This document shows positions 26,747 through 33,280 of a DNA stretch of 64,000 nt, in pieces. Location of the stretch: contig CAZPJD010000184.1 in assembly GCA_964586775.1 (NCBI GenBank), forward strand, positions 69,987 through 133,986, written 5' to 3'. The position numbers were made by a program, and so were the translations under genes. Source of the stretch: an uncultured bacterium (lineage in GTDB: Bacteria; Lernaellota; Lernaellaia; JACKCT01). The notes beneath the pieces are model-generated. The model saw only the letters and a program-made list of their open reading frames with translations, did no database searches and was not told the origin of the DNA. Every line of letters begins with the position of its first letter. Within the stretch, counting starts at the first letter, position 1.

Positions 26747-27766
26747 TCACGAAAAATCCAGCACTTCGACGGTTTCCTGCGCCACGCCGACCGTCACGGA
26801 GCGAACTTGCCCTTCGGGGTCGCCGCCGAGCTGGAACGGGATGTCGTGATCGCTCTCGATTCGGACCCGCGTCAGAAGGTAATCGCGGACACCCGGATGG
26901 CGAATGGTGCCCGTCCAGACCTGCGGCACGCGGGCAATCAGACCGGGGATCGACGTGGACACGAGGCGAAGCTGCAGGTATCCGGGCGGCATCGTCCCCG
27001 CGAACGGAAAGACCTTGAGATTAAAACCGTAGTTCATGGTCGTAGCGAATCCAACGAACCTGAGCGGCCCCTCGAAGATCAGATCGCCGCGCCGCAGTCC
27101 GAGCCGCGTCGGCTGCTCGCCGATCGCGGCCTGAAAAACCGGGTCGTCGGAGTCGTTATAAACGCGCACGTTCCATTGGGACCCGTGCCGGAAAAAGTAC
27201 GGGATCGACACGAACACGATGGCGTAGATGTAGCCCCACATACTGTTGGCGAATTTCCAGCGCCATCCCTCGTGGTGCCGGTTTTTCAGCGTGATGTAGT
27301 CGTTCAGCACCGCGGCGTCGATGCCGAGACCGCCCATGTGCGCGAGGCGGTCGCCGACCTGCAGCATGGAAAAGCGCGTAAAGCGCGATGGCGCGCCGCG
27401 CTTGAGCCGGTCGATCGGGTCCGTCTTGGGCGGCACCTTGAGCTGCCCCGCCCAGCCGTTTCCCGTGCCGAGCTTGAGCAGGCCGATGCGCGGCATGACC
27501 GCCTCGCGGCCGTCGGCGATCCGGCGTTTCACGTGGCGAAACATCTGCTCGATGATGCGCATGGCGGTGCCGTCGCCACCGCCGCAGAACACAAGCGGGT
27601 ATTTTTTTTCGATGATCTCTTCGAGGCAGGCGTCGGACTGCTCGACGGTCTGCGTGACGAACAGGTCCTCGTCCGGCACGTGGCGCGCGACCATCTCGAT
27701 CGTGTGCGCCTTCACCTTGCGCGCCCTGTTGTTCATCACGACCGCGAATCGCTGCGCCTGGTCCAT
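26747..27766 (-). CDS. DAGK_cat-family lipid kinase (YegS/diacylglycerol kinase-like)
   Basis: The start MDQAQRFAVVMNNRA and the catalytic motif FCGGGDGTAM (GGDGT). About 340 aa. It is co-directional with nadE and the NDT-like gene, 8 nt downstream of the latter. Confidence 0.75.
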   Translation of the reverse strand: MDQAQRFAVVMNNRARKVKAHTIEMVARHVPDEDLFVTQTVEQSDACLEEIIEKKYPLVFCGGGDGTAMRIIEQMFRHVKRRIADGREAVMPRIGLLKLGTGNGWAGQLKVPPKTDPIDRLKRGAPSRFTRFSMLQVGDRLAHMGGLGIDAAVLNDYITLKNRHHEGWRWKFANSMWGYIYAIVFVSIPYFFRHGSQWNVRVYNDSDDPVFQAAIGEQPTRLGLRRGDLIFEGPLRFVGFATTMNYGFNLKVFPFAGTMPPGYLQLRLVSTSIPGLIARVPQVWTGTIRHPGVRDYLLTRVRIESDHDIPFQLGGDPEGQVRSVTVGVAQETVEVLDFS

Positions 27767-27773
27767 CGCGCCC

Positions 27774-28244
27774 TCACTCGACCGAAGCGAGATTTCCGGC
27801 TGATTTTTGGACAATAGCTTCCAGACGGTCTTCCGACAACCATGCGTCGAATTCTTCGACATCGCGGAACACCGCCGCCGAGAAAAGCCGCACGACCCAG
27901 TTGTGCGTCATCGGGGTGATCGCGATCACCGGCACGCCCGCGCGCGCGCACTCCCACATCTCGATGGCGGTCCCCATGCTGGCCGTCGGCAGCACCGCGA
28001 TGAGGAATCGGCAGCGCGTGGCGAGATCGATGTGGTGGTGAAACACGCGGTGCGCGTCGGCGTCGTCGTACGCCGGGCTCTCGCGATGATGATCGACGGG
28101 GCAATAGATCGTCCGCGACGGCGTCCTGCGCGCCACGATGTCCTTGATGCGCGCGCGGTAGTCCTGCGTCTCGACATCGCGATCGATTCGCGAACCCTGG
28201 ATGACCCCCGCGAGAAAGAAGTCGTACGCCGGGCCGGTCGTCAC
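27774..28244 (-). CDS. nucleoside 2-deoxyribosyltransferase-like (Rcl/DNPH1/LOG-fold) protein, 156 aa
   Basis: GTG start overlapping the nadE TGA (GAGTGACG, i.e. GTGA coupling). The N-terminal YDFFLAG motif and the Gly/Thr/Glu motif SMGTAIEMWECARAGVPVIAI match the PF05014-type fold. Confidence 0.55.
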   Translation of the reverse strand: MTTGPAYDFFLAGVIQGSRIDRDVETQDYRARIKDIVARRTPSRTIYCPVDHHRESPAYDDADAHRVFHHHIDLATRCRFLIAVLPTASMGTAIEMWECARAGVPVIAITPMTHNWVVRLFSAAVFRDVEEFDAWLSEDRLEAIVQKSAGNLASVE

Positions 28245-30001: not shown

Positions 30002-30019
30002 GCCCGGCCCCCTCGCCGA

Positions 30020-33000
30020 CTAACGCCTTCGGGCGGCCTCATAATACTCCTGAATCGACCGCACGTTCCAATCCTCGGGCTTGCCCGCCGCGAGCCCGCG
30101 CAGTCCCGCGAACGCCTCGGGCATGGTCGTGAAGTAGGGCACGCCCTGCTCCAGCGCGCCGCGCCGGATCGAGCGGCTGTCGGCGATGGCGGCCTTGCCC
30201 GACGTGGTGTTGATGACCAGATCGATGTCGCCGTTGAGGATGCGATCGACGATGTGCGGCCGGCCCTCGTGGACCTTGTTGACGACCTCGACCGCGATGC
30301 CCGCCTCGCGCGCGATCTGCGCCGTTCCGCTCGTGCACACGACGCGATAGCCGAGCTCCGTCAGGCGCTTGGCGAGATCGGGCACGAAGCGCCGATCGGA
30401 TTCCTTGACCGACAAAAAGACGCGACCCCGGCTGGGCAGGCGGTTGCCCGCCGCGATCTCGGCCTTGGCGAAGGCCACGCCGAAATCGAAGCCGATGCCC
30501 ATCACCTCGCCCGTGCTCTTCATCTCGGGCCCGAGCAGCGTGTCGGTGCCCGGGAACTTGATGAAGGGGTACACGGCCTCTTTTACCGCGAAGTAGGCCG
30601 GAATGACCGTAGTGGTGAATCCCTGATCGCGAAGGCTCTGGCCAAGCATGACCTTGGTCGCGATCTTGACGAGCGGCACACCGATGGTCTTGGAGACGAA
30701 GGGCACGGTGCGGCTCGCGCGGGGGTTGACCTCGAGCAGGAAAACCTCGCTGCCCTGCACCGCGAACTGGATGTTGATGAGCCCGATGACGCCGATCTCG
30801 AAGGCCAGCGCCTCGGTCTGGCGGCGGATTTTTTCGAGCACCTCGTCGGAGAGCGAGAACGTGGGGATCGAACAGCTGGAATCGCCGGAGTGCACGCCCG
30901 CGCGCTCGATCTGCTCCATCACCGCGCCGACGACGCACAGCTCCCCGTCGCAAACCGCGTCCACGTCCAGCTCGATCGCGTCTTCGAGAAACTTGTCGAC
31001 CAGGATCGGCTTGTCGGGCGTCACGAGCACGGCGTGCTTCATATAGGTGCGCAGCGACTCCTCGTCGTGCACGATCTCCATCGCCCGCCCGCCGAGCACG
31101 TACGATGGACGCACCACCACCGGGTAACCAATGCGCTCGGCCGCTTCGACGGCCTCTTCCACGTTCATCGCCGTGTCGTTGGGCGGCTGGCGCAGACCGA
31201 GCTTGTTCACGATCAACGCGAAGCGCTTGCGGTCCTCGGTGCGGTCGATCGCGTCGGGCGAGGTGCCCAGGATCGGCACGCCGGCGTCTTCGAGCTTTTG
31301 CGCGAGCTTGAGCGGCGTCTGCCCGCCGAACTGAAGCACCACGCCGTAGGGCTTCTCGGTCTCGACGATGTTCATGACGTGCTCGAACGTCACGGGCTCG
31401 AAGTAGAGGCGGTCCGACGTGTCGTAGTCGGTCGAAACCGTCTCGGGATTGCAGTTGACCATGATCGACGTGAAGCCGGCTTCCTTCGCGGCCATCGCGC
31501 CATGCACGCAGCAGTAATCGAACTCGATCCCCTGCCCGATGCGGTTCGGCCCGCCGCCGAGAATCATCACCTTGCGCGATTCGTCGGGGCTCGCTTCGCA
31601 CTCCGACTCGTAGGTCGAGTAGAAGTACGGCGTGAACGCCTCGAATTCCGCGCCGCAGGTGTCGACCATCTTGTAGGTCGCCTTGACGCCGAGCGACGTG
31701 CGGTGATCGCGCACCGACACCTCGTCGATTCCGAGCATTTCCGCGAGTGCGCGGTCCGAGAAGCCCATCCGCTTCGCGTTTTGCCAGTCGCCCGCGTCCC
31801 ACCGCTCCAGCGCGGGGCGATCGGGCCGCTCGGCGGCGAGTTTCGCGAGGCGCGTTTCCTCGACCACGATTTGCTCGATATAGGCGAGGAACCAGGGATC
31901 GATCTTCGATTTGGCGAAGATCTCGTCCACGCTCATCCCGGCGCGCATGGCCTCGGCGATGTAATGGATGCGGTTCCACGTGGGCACGCGCAGTTTTTCC
32001 TCGAGCCCCTCCGGGTCCACGATTCGCCCGTCTTCGATGAACCGTGTGACCTGTCCGAGCCGGTAGCGACCGTTTTCGAGCGAATTGATCGCTTTTTGCA
32101 TCGCCTCGGCGAAGGTACGCCCGATCGCCATCGCCTCGCCGACGGATTTCATCTGCGTGGTGAGGGTCTTGTCGGTGTCGGGGAATTTCTCGAAATCGAA
32201 GCGCGGGATCTTGGCGACCACGTAGTCGATGGTCGGCTCGAAGCACGCCTTCGTCTTGCGCGTGATGTCGTTCGTAAGTTCGTCGAGCGTGTAGCCCACC
32301 GCCAGCTTGGCGGCGATCTTGGCGATCGGGAAACCCGTCGCCTTGGACGCCAGCGCCGACGAGCGCGACACGCGCGGGTTCATCTCGACGATCACCTGCT
32401 CGCCCGTGTCGGGATTCACCGCGAACTGGATGTTGCAGCCGCCGGTATCGACGCCGATCTCCCGGATGATGCGCAGCGAGGAGTCGCGCATGATCTGGTA
32501 TTCCTTGTCGGTCAGCGTCTGCGCGGGGGCCACCGTGATCGAATCGCCGGTGTGAACGCCCATCGGATCGAGGTTCTCGATCGAGCAAATGATGACGACG
32601 TTGTCCATGCGGTCGCGCATCACCTCCAGCTCGTACTCTTTCCATCCGAGCACGCTCTCCTCGATCAGCACCGTCTTTTTCGGCGACAGATCGAGACCCC
32701 AACGCACGAGCCTCTCGAACTCCTTGCGGTTGTACGCGATGCTGCCGCCCGTGCCGCCCAGCGTGAAACTCGGGCGAATGATGACCGGGAACCCGATCAC
32801 TTCGGTGAATGCCTCGGCCTCGGCCACGTTCGAGGCGTAAACGGACCTCGGCACGGCGAGGCCGAGTTTGCGCATGGCGCCCTTGAACGCCTCGCGGTCC
32901 TCGGCCTTGTGGATCGCCTCGTACTTCGCGCCGATCAATTCGACATTGTACCGGCCGATGAGACCCGACTCCCACGCATCGGTCGCGAGGTTGAGCGCGG

Positions 33001-33280
33001 TTTGGCCGCCGATGGTCGGCAGCATGGCGTCGGGCCGCTCGCGGATGAAGATCTTTTCGAGCACGTCGAGCGTGATGGGCTCGATGTAGATGCGGTTCGC
33101 CATCTCCGGGTCCGTCATGATGGTCGCCGGATTGGAGTTGAGCAGAACGACCTCGTACCCCTCTTCGCGCAGCGCCTTGCAGGCCTGCGTGCCGGAGTAG
33201 TCGAATTCGCAGGCCTGGCCGATGACGATGGGACCGGAGCCGATGAGCAGAATCTTGCGGATGTCCGTGCGCTTGGGCAT
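30020..33280 (-). CDS. carB: carbamoyl-phosphate synthase large subunit
   Basis: The start [30 protein letters not shown]. The duplicated ATP-grasp halves include the second-half signature [24 protein letters not shown]. 1086 aa. The 37-codon leader of the track ORF was discarded. Confidence 0.95.

What the first reader, a model, noticed from the sequence alone, without database searches (positions are those of the whole stretch)
26747..33280. carB-nadE-(NDT-like)-lipid-kinase string with a GTGA-coupled nucleoside 2-deoxyribosyltransferase-like gene
A 156-aa protein with the nucleoside 2-deoxyribosyltransferase/Rcl/LOG-type fold has the motifs YDFFLAG and SMGTAIEMWE. It starts with a GTG that overlaps the TGA of glutamine-dependent NAD synthetase (GAGTGACG). 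Its expression is therefore translationally coupled to nadE. A DAGK_cat-family lipid kinase follows it directly, and carB precedes nadE by 18 nt. N-glycoside hydrolases of this fold act on nucleotides, cleaving the base from the ribose phosphate. Coupling one to NAD synthesis suggests a role in pyridine-nucleotide salvage or turnover, such as NMN/NaMN or nucleotide N-ribosyl hydrolysis, or a regulatory NAD-consuming activity. It is not a typical housekeeping neighbour of nadE.
Basis: partly seen in the sequence, partly recalled or inferred. Interest (0 to 1): 0.5.

Follow-up and report, generated by a model that had tools for sequence, protein, structure and literature searches.

The report
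NAD-linked deoxyribosyltransferase-fold enzyme family
A small gene that overlaps the end of the NAD synthetase gene encodes a member of an uncharacterised, widespread branch of the base-cleaving "deoxyribosyltransferase" enzyme fold; in another phylum the same protein is fused to the NMN deamidase PncC, so it is a testable candidate for an unassigned step of bacterial NAD recycling.

Summary
On the minus strand lie carB (30020-33280), an 18-nt gap, glutamine-dependent nadE (28241-30001), a 156-aa gene (27774-28244) whose GTG overlaps the nadE TGA, then 7 nt and a DAGK_cat kinase (26747-27766).

The nadE pairing is confined to the closest relatives, at 50% identity or more. There it outlasts both carB and the kinase. 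Most other lineages have unrelated housekeeping neighbours.

In Anaerolineae the same protein sits directly upstream of PncC (NMN deamidase), or is fused to it in 17 protein clusters.

My best reading is a pyridine ribonucleotide (NMN/NaMN) N-glycosidase or base-exchange enzyme, at about 0.4. The substrate is untested.

The parts
30020..33280 (-). carB, carbamoyl-phosphate synthase large subunit (1086 aa), first gene of the string
   Evidence: full CPSase_L_D1/D2/D3 and MGS domain set. ATG at 33280, TAG at 30022-30020. A divergent gene upstream starts at 33583 (+).
30002..30019 (-). 18-nt carB-nadE spacer containing a GAGGGGG Shine-Dalgarno-like run
   Evidence: read directly from the sequence.
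28241..30001 (-). nadE, glutamine-dependent NAD+ synthetase (586 aa)
   Evidence: PF00795 + PF02540; NF010588 equivalog at 700 bits (cutoff 479).
28241..28244 (-). GTGA overlap: start codon of the NDT-like gene (28244-28242) overlaps the nadE stop codon (28243-28241)
   Evidence: Equivalent overlaps in relatives are ATGACTGA (L002, L005), ATGCCTGA (L016) and TGATG (L019).
27774..28244 (-). 156-aa NDT/DNPH1/MilB-fold protein of the uncharacterised 'QGS...QxYR...ASMGTAxE...NW' clade. Predicted nucleophile E95, phosphate Ser S89, and F10 at the ribose-selectivity position.
26747..27766 (-). DAGK_cat-family kinase (339 aa) of unknown substrate. The ATG lies 7 nt after the NDT-like stop, and a GAGGG site overlaps that stop.
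   Evidence: PF00781 at 42.7 bits; closest solved structure is YegS (E 1e-5); below all NCBIfam lipid-kinase cutoffs. It follows the NDT-like gene in L002, L005, L016, L099 and L100, but not in L019, L102, L014 or L020-22.
25887..26600 (-). PilZ-domain protein, possibly the last gene of the transcription unit (146-nt gap after the kinase; a terminator-like hairpin follows at 25838-25865)
   Evidence: Membership in the operon is not shown.

Best explanation
The 156-aa protein is an enzyme of the nucleoside 2-deoxyribosyltransferase/DNPH1/MilB superfamily. It most likely acts on a pyridine ribonucleoside 5'-monophosphate (NMN and/or NaMN) within NAD recycling.

Proposed mechanism (inferred):
1. 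The 5'-phosphate is held by the invariant Ser89/Gly91 of the ASMGTAIE loop and by a basic residue (R/K119).
2. Glu95 attacks C1' and forms a covalent 5-phosphoribosyl-enzyme ester.
3. The neutral pyridine base leaves without acid catalysis. This would explain why the general-acid Asp of DNPH1/NDT is not conserved.
4. The intermediate is then hydrolysed (NMN/NaMN nucleosidase) or passed to another pyridine base (nicotinamide/nicotinate exchange).

Phe10, in place of the DNPH1 Tyr, is the MilB-type state that admits a 2'-OH.

In this genome the gene is co-transcribed with nadE and, through the GTGA overlap, probably translationally coupled to it.

Shown: the gene, the overlap, the fold, the motif conservation, and the nadE and PncC linkages. 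Inferred: catalysis, substrate, coupling and physiological role.
For: Fold and catalytic residues
- hhalign and hmmsearch align ASMGTAIE95 with PSLGVGYE(93 rat/104 human), and FLAGVIQGS with YFCGSIRGG.
- Over 176 diverse members, E95 is kept in 174, S89 in 172 and G91 in 174. Position 10 is F in 140 and Y in 19. The position of DNPH1 D80 is variable.
- Residue roles come from PMC10603095: E104 is the nucleophile, D80 protonates the leaving base, S98 binds phosphate, and MilB F17 replaces Y24 to accept ribose.

NAD links in two unrelated lineages
- (1) nadE lies directly upstream, usually with stop/start overlap, in every relative of 50% identity or more that has upstream sequence. This holds in three different arrangements: carB-nadE-X-kinase, carB-nadE-X-sulfatase, and nadE-(insert)-X-citrate synthase. 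The nadE-X pair therefore outlasts both carB and the kinase.
- (2) In Anaerolineae, a stand-alone CinA/PncC gene (PF02464, 195.6 bits) lies 15-90 nt downstream in 3 genome loci and 7 metagenome loci. In a fourth genome locus, L080, the two are one ORF. There are 17 distinct 90%-identity clusters of NDT-like-PncC fusion proteins with all motifs intact.

Precedents
- The other PncC-fused domain (COG1058) proved to be an NAD-recycling enzyme (PMC3680494).
- CD38 shows that NMN glycohydrolase and NMN-to-NaMN base exchange do occur (PMC11903787). That CD38 shares a related fold is my own recollection, not a tool result.
Against: - No biochemical data exist for any member.
- About 150 of about 170 loci show no NAD gene next to the family. 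Neighbours there are unrelated housekeeping genes: an rlmN-like radical SAM gene in 25 Planctomycetota loci, pta and an NFACT/RqcH-like gene in Zixibacteria/Ignavibacteria, and coaX, priA, lepA and prfB elsewhere.
- The commonest fusion partner is a ThiS/MoaD-like beta-grasp domain. Rarer partners are Trans_reg_C, EVE, a DNA methylase, HisG and an SDR. None of these points to NAD.
- In the nadE lineage carB is conserved next to nadE almost as tightly without any pathway link. Adjacency alone is therefore weak evidence.
- My rough estimate is that two NAD neighbours among about 50-60 independent flanking slots has a chance probability of about 0.02-0.03.
- An NMN/NaMN nucleosidase next to recycling enzymes looks wasteful unless it is regulated or acts on an aberrant nucleotide.
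- Hydrolysis of the covalent intermediate would still need a base, and none has been identified.
Confidence: 0.4

Rival explanations
1. It is a generic nucleotide-pool N-glycosidase, like DNPH1/MilB/BcmB, acting on a non-pyridine nucleoside 5'-monophosphate such as CMP, a modified NMP, or AMP (a NadE product). Its position after nadE, and before pncC elsewhere, would be lineage-specific operon hitch-hiking among housekeeping genes.
For: - The closest structures are dNMP, CMP and nucleoside enzymes.
- The phosphate Ser and the nucleophile Glu are conserved.
- Most lineages have unrelated housekeeping neighbours.
- carB-nadE shows that tight conserved adjacency without a shared pathway occurs in this very operon.
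- EVE and DNA-methylase fusions hint at modified bases.
Against: - A stable fusion to PncC in 17 clusters is hard to ascribe to chance.
- The general-acid Asp that DNPH1 uses to protonate the leaving nucleobase is not conserved (PMC10603095).
- Both of the two enzyme partners with a defined pathway among the tightly joined partners (overlap or fusion) are NAD enzymes.
Confidence: 0.3
2. It is an NAD(+)/NaAD glycohydrolase, or a non-catalytic pyridine-nucleotide sensor that modulates NadE or PncC.
For: - Small regulators such as PII are known to be encoded next to nadE (PMC7196632 abstract).
- There is a single fusion to DUF952, a Tpt1-like ADP-ribosyltransferase fold.
Against: - There were no TIR, DUF4062 or PADLOC model hits, no viral relatives, and no defence-island context.
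- The DNPH1/MilB-type monophosphate-binding Ser is conserved, which suits a mononucleotide.
- The DUF952 fusion is a singleton contig.
- Near-invariance of the nucleophile Glu argues for catalysis.
Confidence: 0.15
3. It acts on a polymer or a carrier-linked substrate, for example removing or exchanging a base on RNA/DNA, or working with a ThiS-like beta-grasp partner. The NAD links would be incidental.
For: - ThiS/Ub-Mut7C-like domains are fused N-terminally, or encoded overlapping upstream, in at least 6 clusters.
- An rlmN-like gene lies downstream in 25 Planctomycetota loci.
- EVE and N6/N4 DNA-methylase fusions exist.
Against: - None of the NDT-superfamily structures matched here is a nucleic-acid-cleaving enzyme (my reading of the names).
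- These partners are mutually heterogeneous, and several may be gene-call fusions seen on single contigs.
- The window protein has no extra domain.
Confidence: 0.1

Closest known systems
DNPH1/Rcl (2'-deoxynucleoside 5'-phosphate N-hydrolase 1)
   Same: - Same fold and the same loop architecture.
- The beta1-loop FLAGVIQGS corresponds to YFCGSIRGG, and ASMGTAIE to PSLGVGYE.
- The nucleophile Glu and the phosphate-binding Ser are in register.
   Different: - Only about 15-19% identity.
- Tyr24 is Phe.
- Arg30 is an invariant Gln.
- The position of the general-acid Asp80 is not conserved.
- There is an extra 5-residue insertion carrying an invariant QxYR motif, and an invariant NW motif after beta4.
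- Found in bacteria only.
MilB / BcmB (CMP / hydroxymethyl-CMP N-glycosidases)
   Same: - Phe at the position that lets MilB accept ribonucleotides (PMC10603095).
   Different: - MilB's phosphate-binding Arg23 corresponds to Gln16 here.
- MilB and BcmB sit in nucleoside-antibiotic gene clusters (background knowledge); this family sits among housekeeping genes.
- The profile search against PDB sequences gives only E = 0.35 for BcmB.
Nucleoside 2'-deoxyribosyltransferases (PF05014, class I/II NDT)
   Same: - 33 of 46 family members give sub-threshold PF05014 hits.
- Shares the retaining double-displacement chemistry that also permits base exchange.
   Different: - NDTs lack the phosphate pocket and act on nucleosides (PMC10603095).
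- The window protein scores 22.1 bits, below the 28.8 gathering cutoff.
COG1058-PncC (CinA) bifunctional NAD-recycling proteins
   Same: PncC fused to a second small domain, where that partner turned out to process an NAD breakdown product (PMC3680494). The NDT-like-PncC fusions have the same layout, with the partner N-terminal and PncC C-terminal.
   Different: The partner domain here has a different fold and a different predicted chemistry: N-glycosidic cleavage instead of pyrophosphatase.
CD38 NMN glycohydrolase / NMN base exchange; bacterial NMN nucleosidase activity (EC 3.2.2.14)
   Same: This is the reaction proposed here: cleavage of the pyridinium-ribose bond of NMN, with optional exchange to nicotinate (PMC11903787). 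The E. coli NMN glycohydrolase gene was listed as 'not yet identified' in 2005 (PMC1249556).
   Different: - No sequence relationship was tested.
- CD38 is a eukaryotic ectoenzyme.
- I have no evidence that this family occurs in E. coli or accounts for that activity.

Membership tests
NDT/DNPH1/MilB superfamily (PF05014 / PF15891) | Rossmann-like alpha/beta NDT fold | tested here: met
   [not shown]
NDT/DNPH1/MilB superfamily (PF05014 / PF15891) | Catalytic nucleophile Glu at the end of the S-x-G-x-x-x-E loop | tested here: met
   E95 aligns with rat E93 / human E104. It is conserved in 174 of 176 family members.
NDT/DNPH1/MilB superfamily (PF05014 / PF15891) | Score above the Pfam gathering threshold | tested here: not met
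   PF05014 scores 22.1 bits against a cutoff of 28.8. 33 of 46 relatives hit PF05014 and 25 of 46 hit PF15891 at E <= 0.01, the best being 1e-7.
DNPH1 (dNMP N-hydrolase) | General acid/base Asp (human D80) | tested here: not met
   It aligns with H71. That column reads H57/L35/M16/E12 over 176 members. No other invariant acid was found; D28 is present in only 100 of 176.
DNPH1 (dNMP N-hydrolase) | Tyr at the end of beta1 (human Y24), associated with 2'-deoxy preference | tested here: not met
   F10 here; F in 140 and Y in 19 members of the family. Phe is the MilB (ribonucleotide) state (PMC10603095).
DNPH1 / MilB (nucleotide-specific members) | 5'-phosphate-binding Ser in the S-x-G loop (human S98, MilB S97) | tested here: met
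   S89 is conserved in 172 of 176 and G91 in 174 of 176.
DNPH1 / MilB (nucleotide-specific members) | Homodimer with a trans residue completing the phosphate site | not testable with these tools
   Only a monomer could be modelled. R/K119, after the invariant NW motif, lies where rat S117 aligns by eye.
LOG / PpnN (PF03641) | PGGxGTxxE motif and a PF03641 match | tested here: not met
   [not shown]
TIR / TIR-like NADases | Match to a TIR or DUF4062 model, or a defence-system context | tested here: not met
   No Pfam or PADLOC hit. No viral relatives. Neighbours are housekeeping genes.
NMN nucleosidase activity (EC 3.2.2.14) | Hydrolysis of NMN to nicotinamide + ribose 5-phosphate | not testable with these tools
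   Requires an enzyme assay. Only genomic linkage to nadE and pncC supports it.
Glutamine-dependent NAD+ synthetase (NadE) | CN_hydrolase + NAD_synthase domains, above the equivalog cutoff | tested here: met
   NF010588 scores 700.1 bits against a cutoff of 479. PF00795 and PF02540 both match.
YegS/DgkB-type lipid kinase | DAGK_cat domain; score above the equivalog cutoff | tested here: inconclusive
   PF00781 scores 42.7 bits (cutoff 23.6) and the GGDGT and GTGNG motifs are present. All NCBIfam lipid-kinase models are far below cutoff (best 35.6 against 284). The closest solved structure is YegS at E 1e-5. Family member; substrate unknown.

The most novel reading that the evidence does not exclude
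[quoted passage not shown] It would be an NDT-fold NMN/NaMN phosphoribohydrolase or nicotinamide/nicotinate base-exchange enzyme. It would work beside PncC and NadE, using a Glu nucleophile without a general acid because the pyridine leaves as a neutral base. That would give a gene to an orphan type of activity (NMN nucleosidase) in at least 564 species across Planctomycetota, Chloroflexota, Zixibacteria, Ignavibacteria, Aquificota and other phyla.
Probability: 0.3. Interest if true: 0.75.

Novelty: new variant of a known kind. Interest (0 to 1): 0.55.

Why it matters
NAD recycling in bacteria is considered largely mapped, yet NMN glycohydrolase activity had no assigned gene in the source I could read (PMC1249556, 2005).

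A compact 150-aa family has a conserved nucleophile. In two phyla it is tied to NadE (by stop/start overlap) or to PncC (by fusion). It is therefore a concrete, cheap-to-test candidate for a missing or alternative step.

If it acts on pyridinium nucleotides, it would show how the NDT/DNPH1 scaffold was re-tooled: Tyr to Phe, loss of the acid Asp, and new QxYR and NW motifs. It would link the scaffold mechanistically to the TIR/CD38 NAD-cleaving enzymes.

If it instead acts on another nucleotide, it still defines a widespread and unannotated pool-sanitising enzyme. Most members carry no Pfam annotation.

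Tried and rejected
- phmmer of the protein against PDB sequences found nothing. The profile search gave only E >= 0.15.
- Full-text searches found nothing relevant for PF15891 or for NDT plus NAD synthetase. No paper combined deoxyribosyltransferase with PncC or NMN deamidase. 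The YtoQ papers listed by the search gave no indication of a function; I did not read them.
- The afdb50 fold library was unavailable.
- The viral contig scan found no relatives, and PADLOC gave no hit. I therefore dropped a defence or phage reading.
- I considered that the downstream DAGK_cat gene might be an NAD kinase, which would give an all-NAD operon. I rejected this: there is no NAD_kinase hit, the motifs are DAGK-type GGDGT/GTGNG, and YegS is the closest structure.
- The 100-aa ORF between nadE and the NDT-like gene in L014/L020 is not ThiS. It has a hydrophobic N-terminal stretch and only a weak SMR hit.
- The intervening ORFs in L020-L022 differ from locus to locus; I read them as insertions.
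- The NDT-like-DUF952 fusion (ART-like fold) sits on a single 3.6-kb contig, so I treat it as weak evidence.
- I annotated the recurrent immediate neighbours in other lineages and found no further NAD genes. Single-locus neighbours and NAD genes other than nadE and pncC were not screened.
- ORF clustering produced many antisense shadow ORFs. 'Cluster 0' merged unrelated ORFs, and I resolved it by hand.

Full report
**1. Observation**

All genes of the finding are on the minus strand.
- carB runs from ATG 33280 to TAG 30022-30020.
- After 18 nt, which contain GAGGGGG, nadE starts at ATG 30001 and ends at TGA 28243-28241.
- The codon at 28244-28242 is GTG, so the string GAGTGACG holds both the nadE stop and a start one base upstream.
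- That frame is open to TGA 27776-27774. It gives 156 aa, beginning (M)TTGPAYDFFLAGVIQGS and containing ASMGTAIEMWE.
- Seven nucleotides later, at 27766, an ATG preceded by GAGGG opens a 339-aa protein.

Identities:
- carB has the complete carbamoyl-phosphate synthase large-chain domain set.
- nadE is a two-domain glutamine-dependent NAD synthetase (NF010588, 700 bits, cutoff 479).
- The last gene carries a DAGK_cat domain (42.7 bits). It is far below every curated lipid-kinase equivalog cutoff, and its nearest solved relative is YegS at E 1e-5.

**2. The 156-aa gene is real and the GTG start is right**
- A word-indexed search found 46 homologous clusters.
- Their N-termini lie 0-10 residues before the FFLAG strand.
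- In relatives the same junction reads ATGACTGA (L002, L005), ATGCCTGA (L016) or TGATG (L019). A stop/start overlap with nadE is therefore maintained even though its exact form changes.
- An exhaustive profile search of 1.84 billion representatives found 695 clusters at E <= 1e-3, of which 113 are at E <= 1e-30.
- A scan of one genome per species found at least 564 genomes with a relative. These are mostly MAGs of Planctomycetota, Zixibacteria, Ignavibacteria, Aquificota, Anaerolineae and unclassified lineages.
- No relatives were found in viral contigs.

**3. Fold and active site**

Pfam gives only a sub-threshold PF05014 hit (22.1 bits against 28.8). However, 33 of 46 relatives hit PF05014 and 25 hit PF15891. 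None hit LOG (PF03641).

An AlphaFold2 model built on the family alignment is confident (pLDDT 90.4, pTM 0.87).
- By Foldseek, the 50 best PDB matches are all NDT, DNPH1/Rcl, MilB, BcmB or YtoQ.

| Window protein | DNPH1 equivalent |
|---|---|
| ASMGTAIE95 | PSLGVGYE (rat E93, human E104) |
| F10-L-A-G-V-I-Q16-G-S | Y24-F-C-G-S-I29-R30-G-G |

According to PMC10603095:
- E104 is the nucleophile that forms the glycosyl-enzyme ester.
- D80 protonates the leaving base and later activates water.
- S98, with S128' from the partner subunit, holds the phosphate.
- MilB has F17 in place of Y24, which lets it take ribonucleotides.

Over 176 diverse family members:
- E95 is present in 174, S89 in 172 and G91 in 174.
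- Position 10 is Phe in 140 and Tyr in 19.
- The column aligned with D80 is variable (H/L/M/E).
- Family-specific invariants absent from DNPH1 are Q16, Q27-x-Y29-R30 (in a 5-residue insertion before helix 1), P49, and N115-W116 followed by R/K119.

The protein is therefore a member of the superfamily by fold and nucleophile. It is not DNPH1, MilB or a classical NDT. It defines its own clade.

**4. Is the nadE pairing conserved?**

I located nadE, carB and the kinase by tblastn in 97 loci from genomes and 80 from metagenomes. I added gene tables for 11 homologues.

nadE lies directly upstream only in the closest relatives, at 50-83% identity. There are three arrangements:
- carB-nadE-X-kinase: the window, L002-5/L018, L016, L099, L100.
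- carB-nadE-X with no kinase: L019, and L102, whose locus ends about 0.8 kb after X. L019 has a sulfatase instead.
- nadE, then 0.5-1 kb of variable inserted ORFs, then X and citrate synthase, with neither carB nor the kinase: L014 and L020-22.

The nadE-X pair is thus the most persistent part of the string. It holds down to about 53% NadE identity. It is gone in the next relatives, such as Ca. Alcyoniella (P0022), and in about 150 other loci.

Caveat: in the same lineage carB is conserved next to nadE just as tightly, and carB has no pathway link to NAD. This adjacency alone is therefore weak functional evidence.

**5. What surrounds the family elsewhere?**

I clustered all ORFs within 5 kb of the gene and annotated the recurrent neighbours with Pfam. 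The result is lineage-specific housekeeping synteny:
- an M20 peptidase and an rlmN-like radical-SAM gene in Planctomycetota (25 loci);
- dnaJ-pta upstream and an NFACT/RqcH-like gene downstream in Zixibacteria and Ignavibacteria;
- coaX with a GxxExxY protein upstream, and a TPM protein downstream, in another group;
- prfB, lepA/hemD and PPDK elsewhere.

One group stands out. In Anaerolineae a stand-alone CinA/PncC gene (PF02464, 195.6 bits) lies 15-90 nt downstream. It is seen in L025, L040 and L052, and in seven metagenome loci. In L080 the two genes are a single ORF.

A search with that fusion found 17 distinct 90%-identity clusters of such fusion proteins, 16 of them full length (295-324 aa, 71-95% identical), from JGI, ENA, NCBI and Logan data. 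All of them keep the QxYR, SMG[TS]xxE and NW motifs, and all but two N-terminally shorter ones keep F-x-x-G-x-x-QGS. All have the CinA ESCTGG motif.

PncC is the NMN deamidase of the pyridine nucleotide cycle (PMC3855486). Its other known fusion partner, COG1058, turned out to be an NAD-recycling ADP-ribose pyrophosphatase (PMC3680494).

Other fusions are:
- ThiS/Ub-Mut7C-like beta-grasp domains (at least 6 clusters, also found as an overlapping upstream gene);
- Trans_reg_C, EVE, an N6/N4 DNA methylase, HisG and an SDR;
- one DUF952, a Tpt1-like ART fold, on a single contig.

**6. Interpretation**

Two unrelated lineages have placed this protein in the tightest possible linkage with an NAD-recycling enzyme. 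One does so by stop/start overlap with NadE, and the other by adjacency or fusion with PncC.

My rough estimate is as follows. There are about 25-30 independent contexts, so 50-60 flanking slots. About 0.4% of genes are NAD genes. Seeing two NAD neighbours by chance then has a probability of about 0.02-0.03. The fusion adds weight to that figure.

The active-site inventory fits a pyridinium ribonucleotide:
- a phosphate site of the DNPH1/MilB type;
- Phe where ribose-accepting MilB has Phe;
- a strictly conserved nucleophile;
- no conserved general acid, which is dispensable when the leaving group (nicotinamide or nicotinate) departs as a neutral base.

I therefore favour, at about 0.4, an NMN/NaMN N-glycosidase or pyridine base-exchange enzyme. 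CD38 shows that both reactions occur on NMN (PMC11903787).

The rivals are:
- a non-pyridine nucleotide sanitiser that merely hitch-hikes in these operons (0.3);
- an NAD/NaAD glycohydrolase, or a ligand sensor acting on NadE or PncC (0.15);
- a role tied to ThiS-like or nucleic-acid partners (0.1).

None of this has been tested biochemically. The heterogeneous neighbours and fusions in most lineages are the main evidence against a strictly NAD-specific role.

**7. Novelty and verdict**

The fold and chemistry are of a known kind. The clade, its motif set and its linkage to NadE and PncC appear undescribed in the literature I could search. Most members carry no Pfam annotation or source-given name.

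I rate it a new variant of a known kind, with interest 0.55. The finding is correct and ordinary as an operon. It points, however, to a cheap and decisive enzymology experiment on a widespread unannotated family that may fill an unassigned NAD-cycle activity. The E. coli NMN glycohydrolase gene was 'not yet identified' in PMC1249556. I have no evidence that this family is that enzyme.

Noticed in passing
L009:7746-7997, L010:7690-8025, L012:8001-8702; proteins P0041, P0043, P0065, P0073, P0077, P0093: In one lineage the NDT-like protein is preceded by, or fused to, a ThiS/MoaD-like beta-grasp domain. The conserved C-terminal Gly-Gly (..FPPSAGG) sits exactly at the junction. The free-standing form ends in GG, and the fused form continues into the enzyme. 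This resembles a ubiquitin-like carrier made as a precursor. A YfbR-like 5'-deoxynucleotidase gene lies about 5 kb upstream in the same loci.
   Followed up: partly
L022, roughly 7905-8575 (between the nadE stop and the NDT-like start): The ORF inserted between nadE and the NDT-like gene is flanked by inverted tandem repeats. (AAGGAAA)n follows directly after the nadE stop, and (CCTTTTT)n precedes the NDT-like start. This looks like a small inserted element.
   Followed up: no
L021 (between nadE and the NDT-like gene); L027:7941-8405, L039:2475-2957, L053:201-665, L064:9497-9961: A roughly 155-aa protein lies immediately upstream of the NDT-like gene in one lineage, after coaX. By its sequence I recognise it as 'GxxExxY'-family; I ran no family scan. 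A similar protein is also one of the inserts that split nadE from the NDT-like gene in L021.
   Followed up: no
window 33583-35259 (+): A 558-aa protein is transcribed divergently from carB. It has a hydrophobic N-terminal stretch that looks like a signal peptide and a weak ABC_transp_aux-like N-terminal half (25.6 bits, below cutoff). Its C-terminal half consists of repeated Cys-rich modules (..FCNG.E.C...) and ends in an acidic tail.
   Followed up: no
window 35306-35995 (+): A DtxR-type iron-dependent repressor is fused to a C-terminal FeoA domain (PF01325 + PF02742 + PF04023).
   Followed up: no
window 25887-26600 (-) and 25838-25865: A PilZ-domain protein lies 146 nt downstream of the kinase on the same strand. 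It is followed by the only strong terminator-like hairpin of the region (12 bp, 9 GC, T-run), which sits between convergent genes.
   Followed up: no
L013:8001-8438 (Kribbella sp., P0046): A distant family member (40% identity) sits in an actinomycete cluster with a carbamoyltransferase, PhyH dioxygenases, NTP_transf_5, a thymidylate-kinase-like gene and an ABC transporter. This looks like a nucleoside natural-product cluster, the context in which MilB-type enzymes occur.
   Followed up: no
proteins P0069, P0074, P0103, P0178: There are single-cluster fusions of the NDT-like domain to an N6/N4 DNA methylase, an EVE domain, HisG and a short-chain dehydrogenase. They sit on short contigs, so gene-call artefacts are not excluded.
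   Followed up: partly
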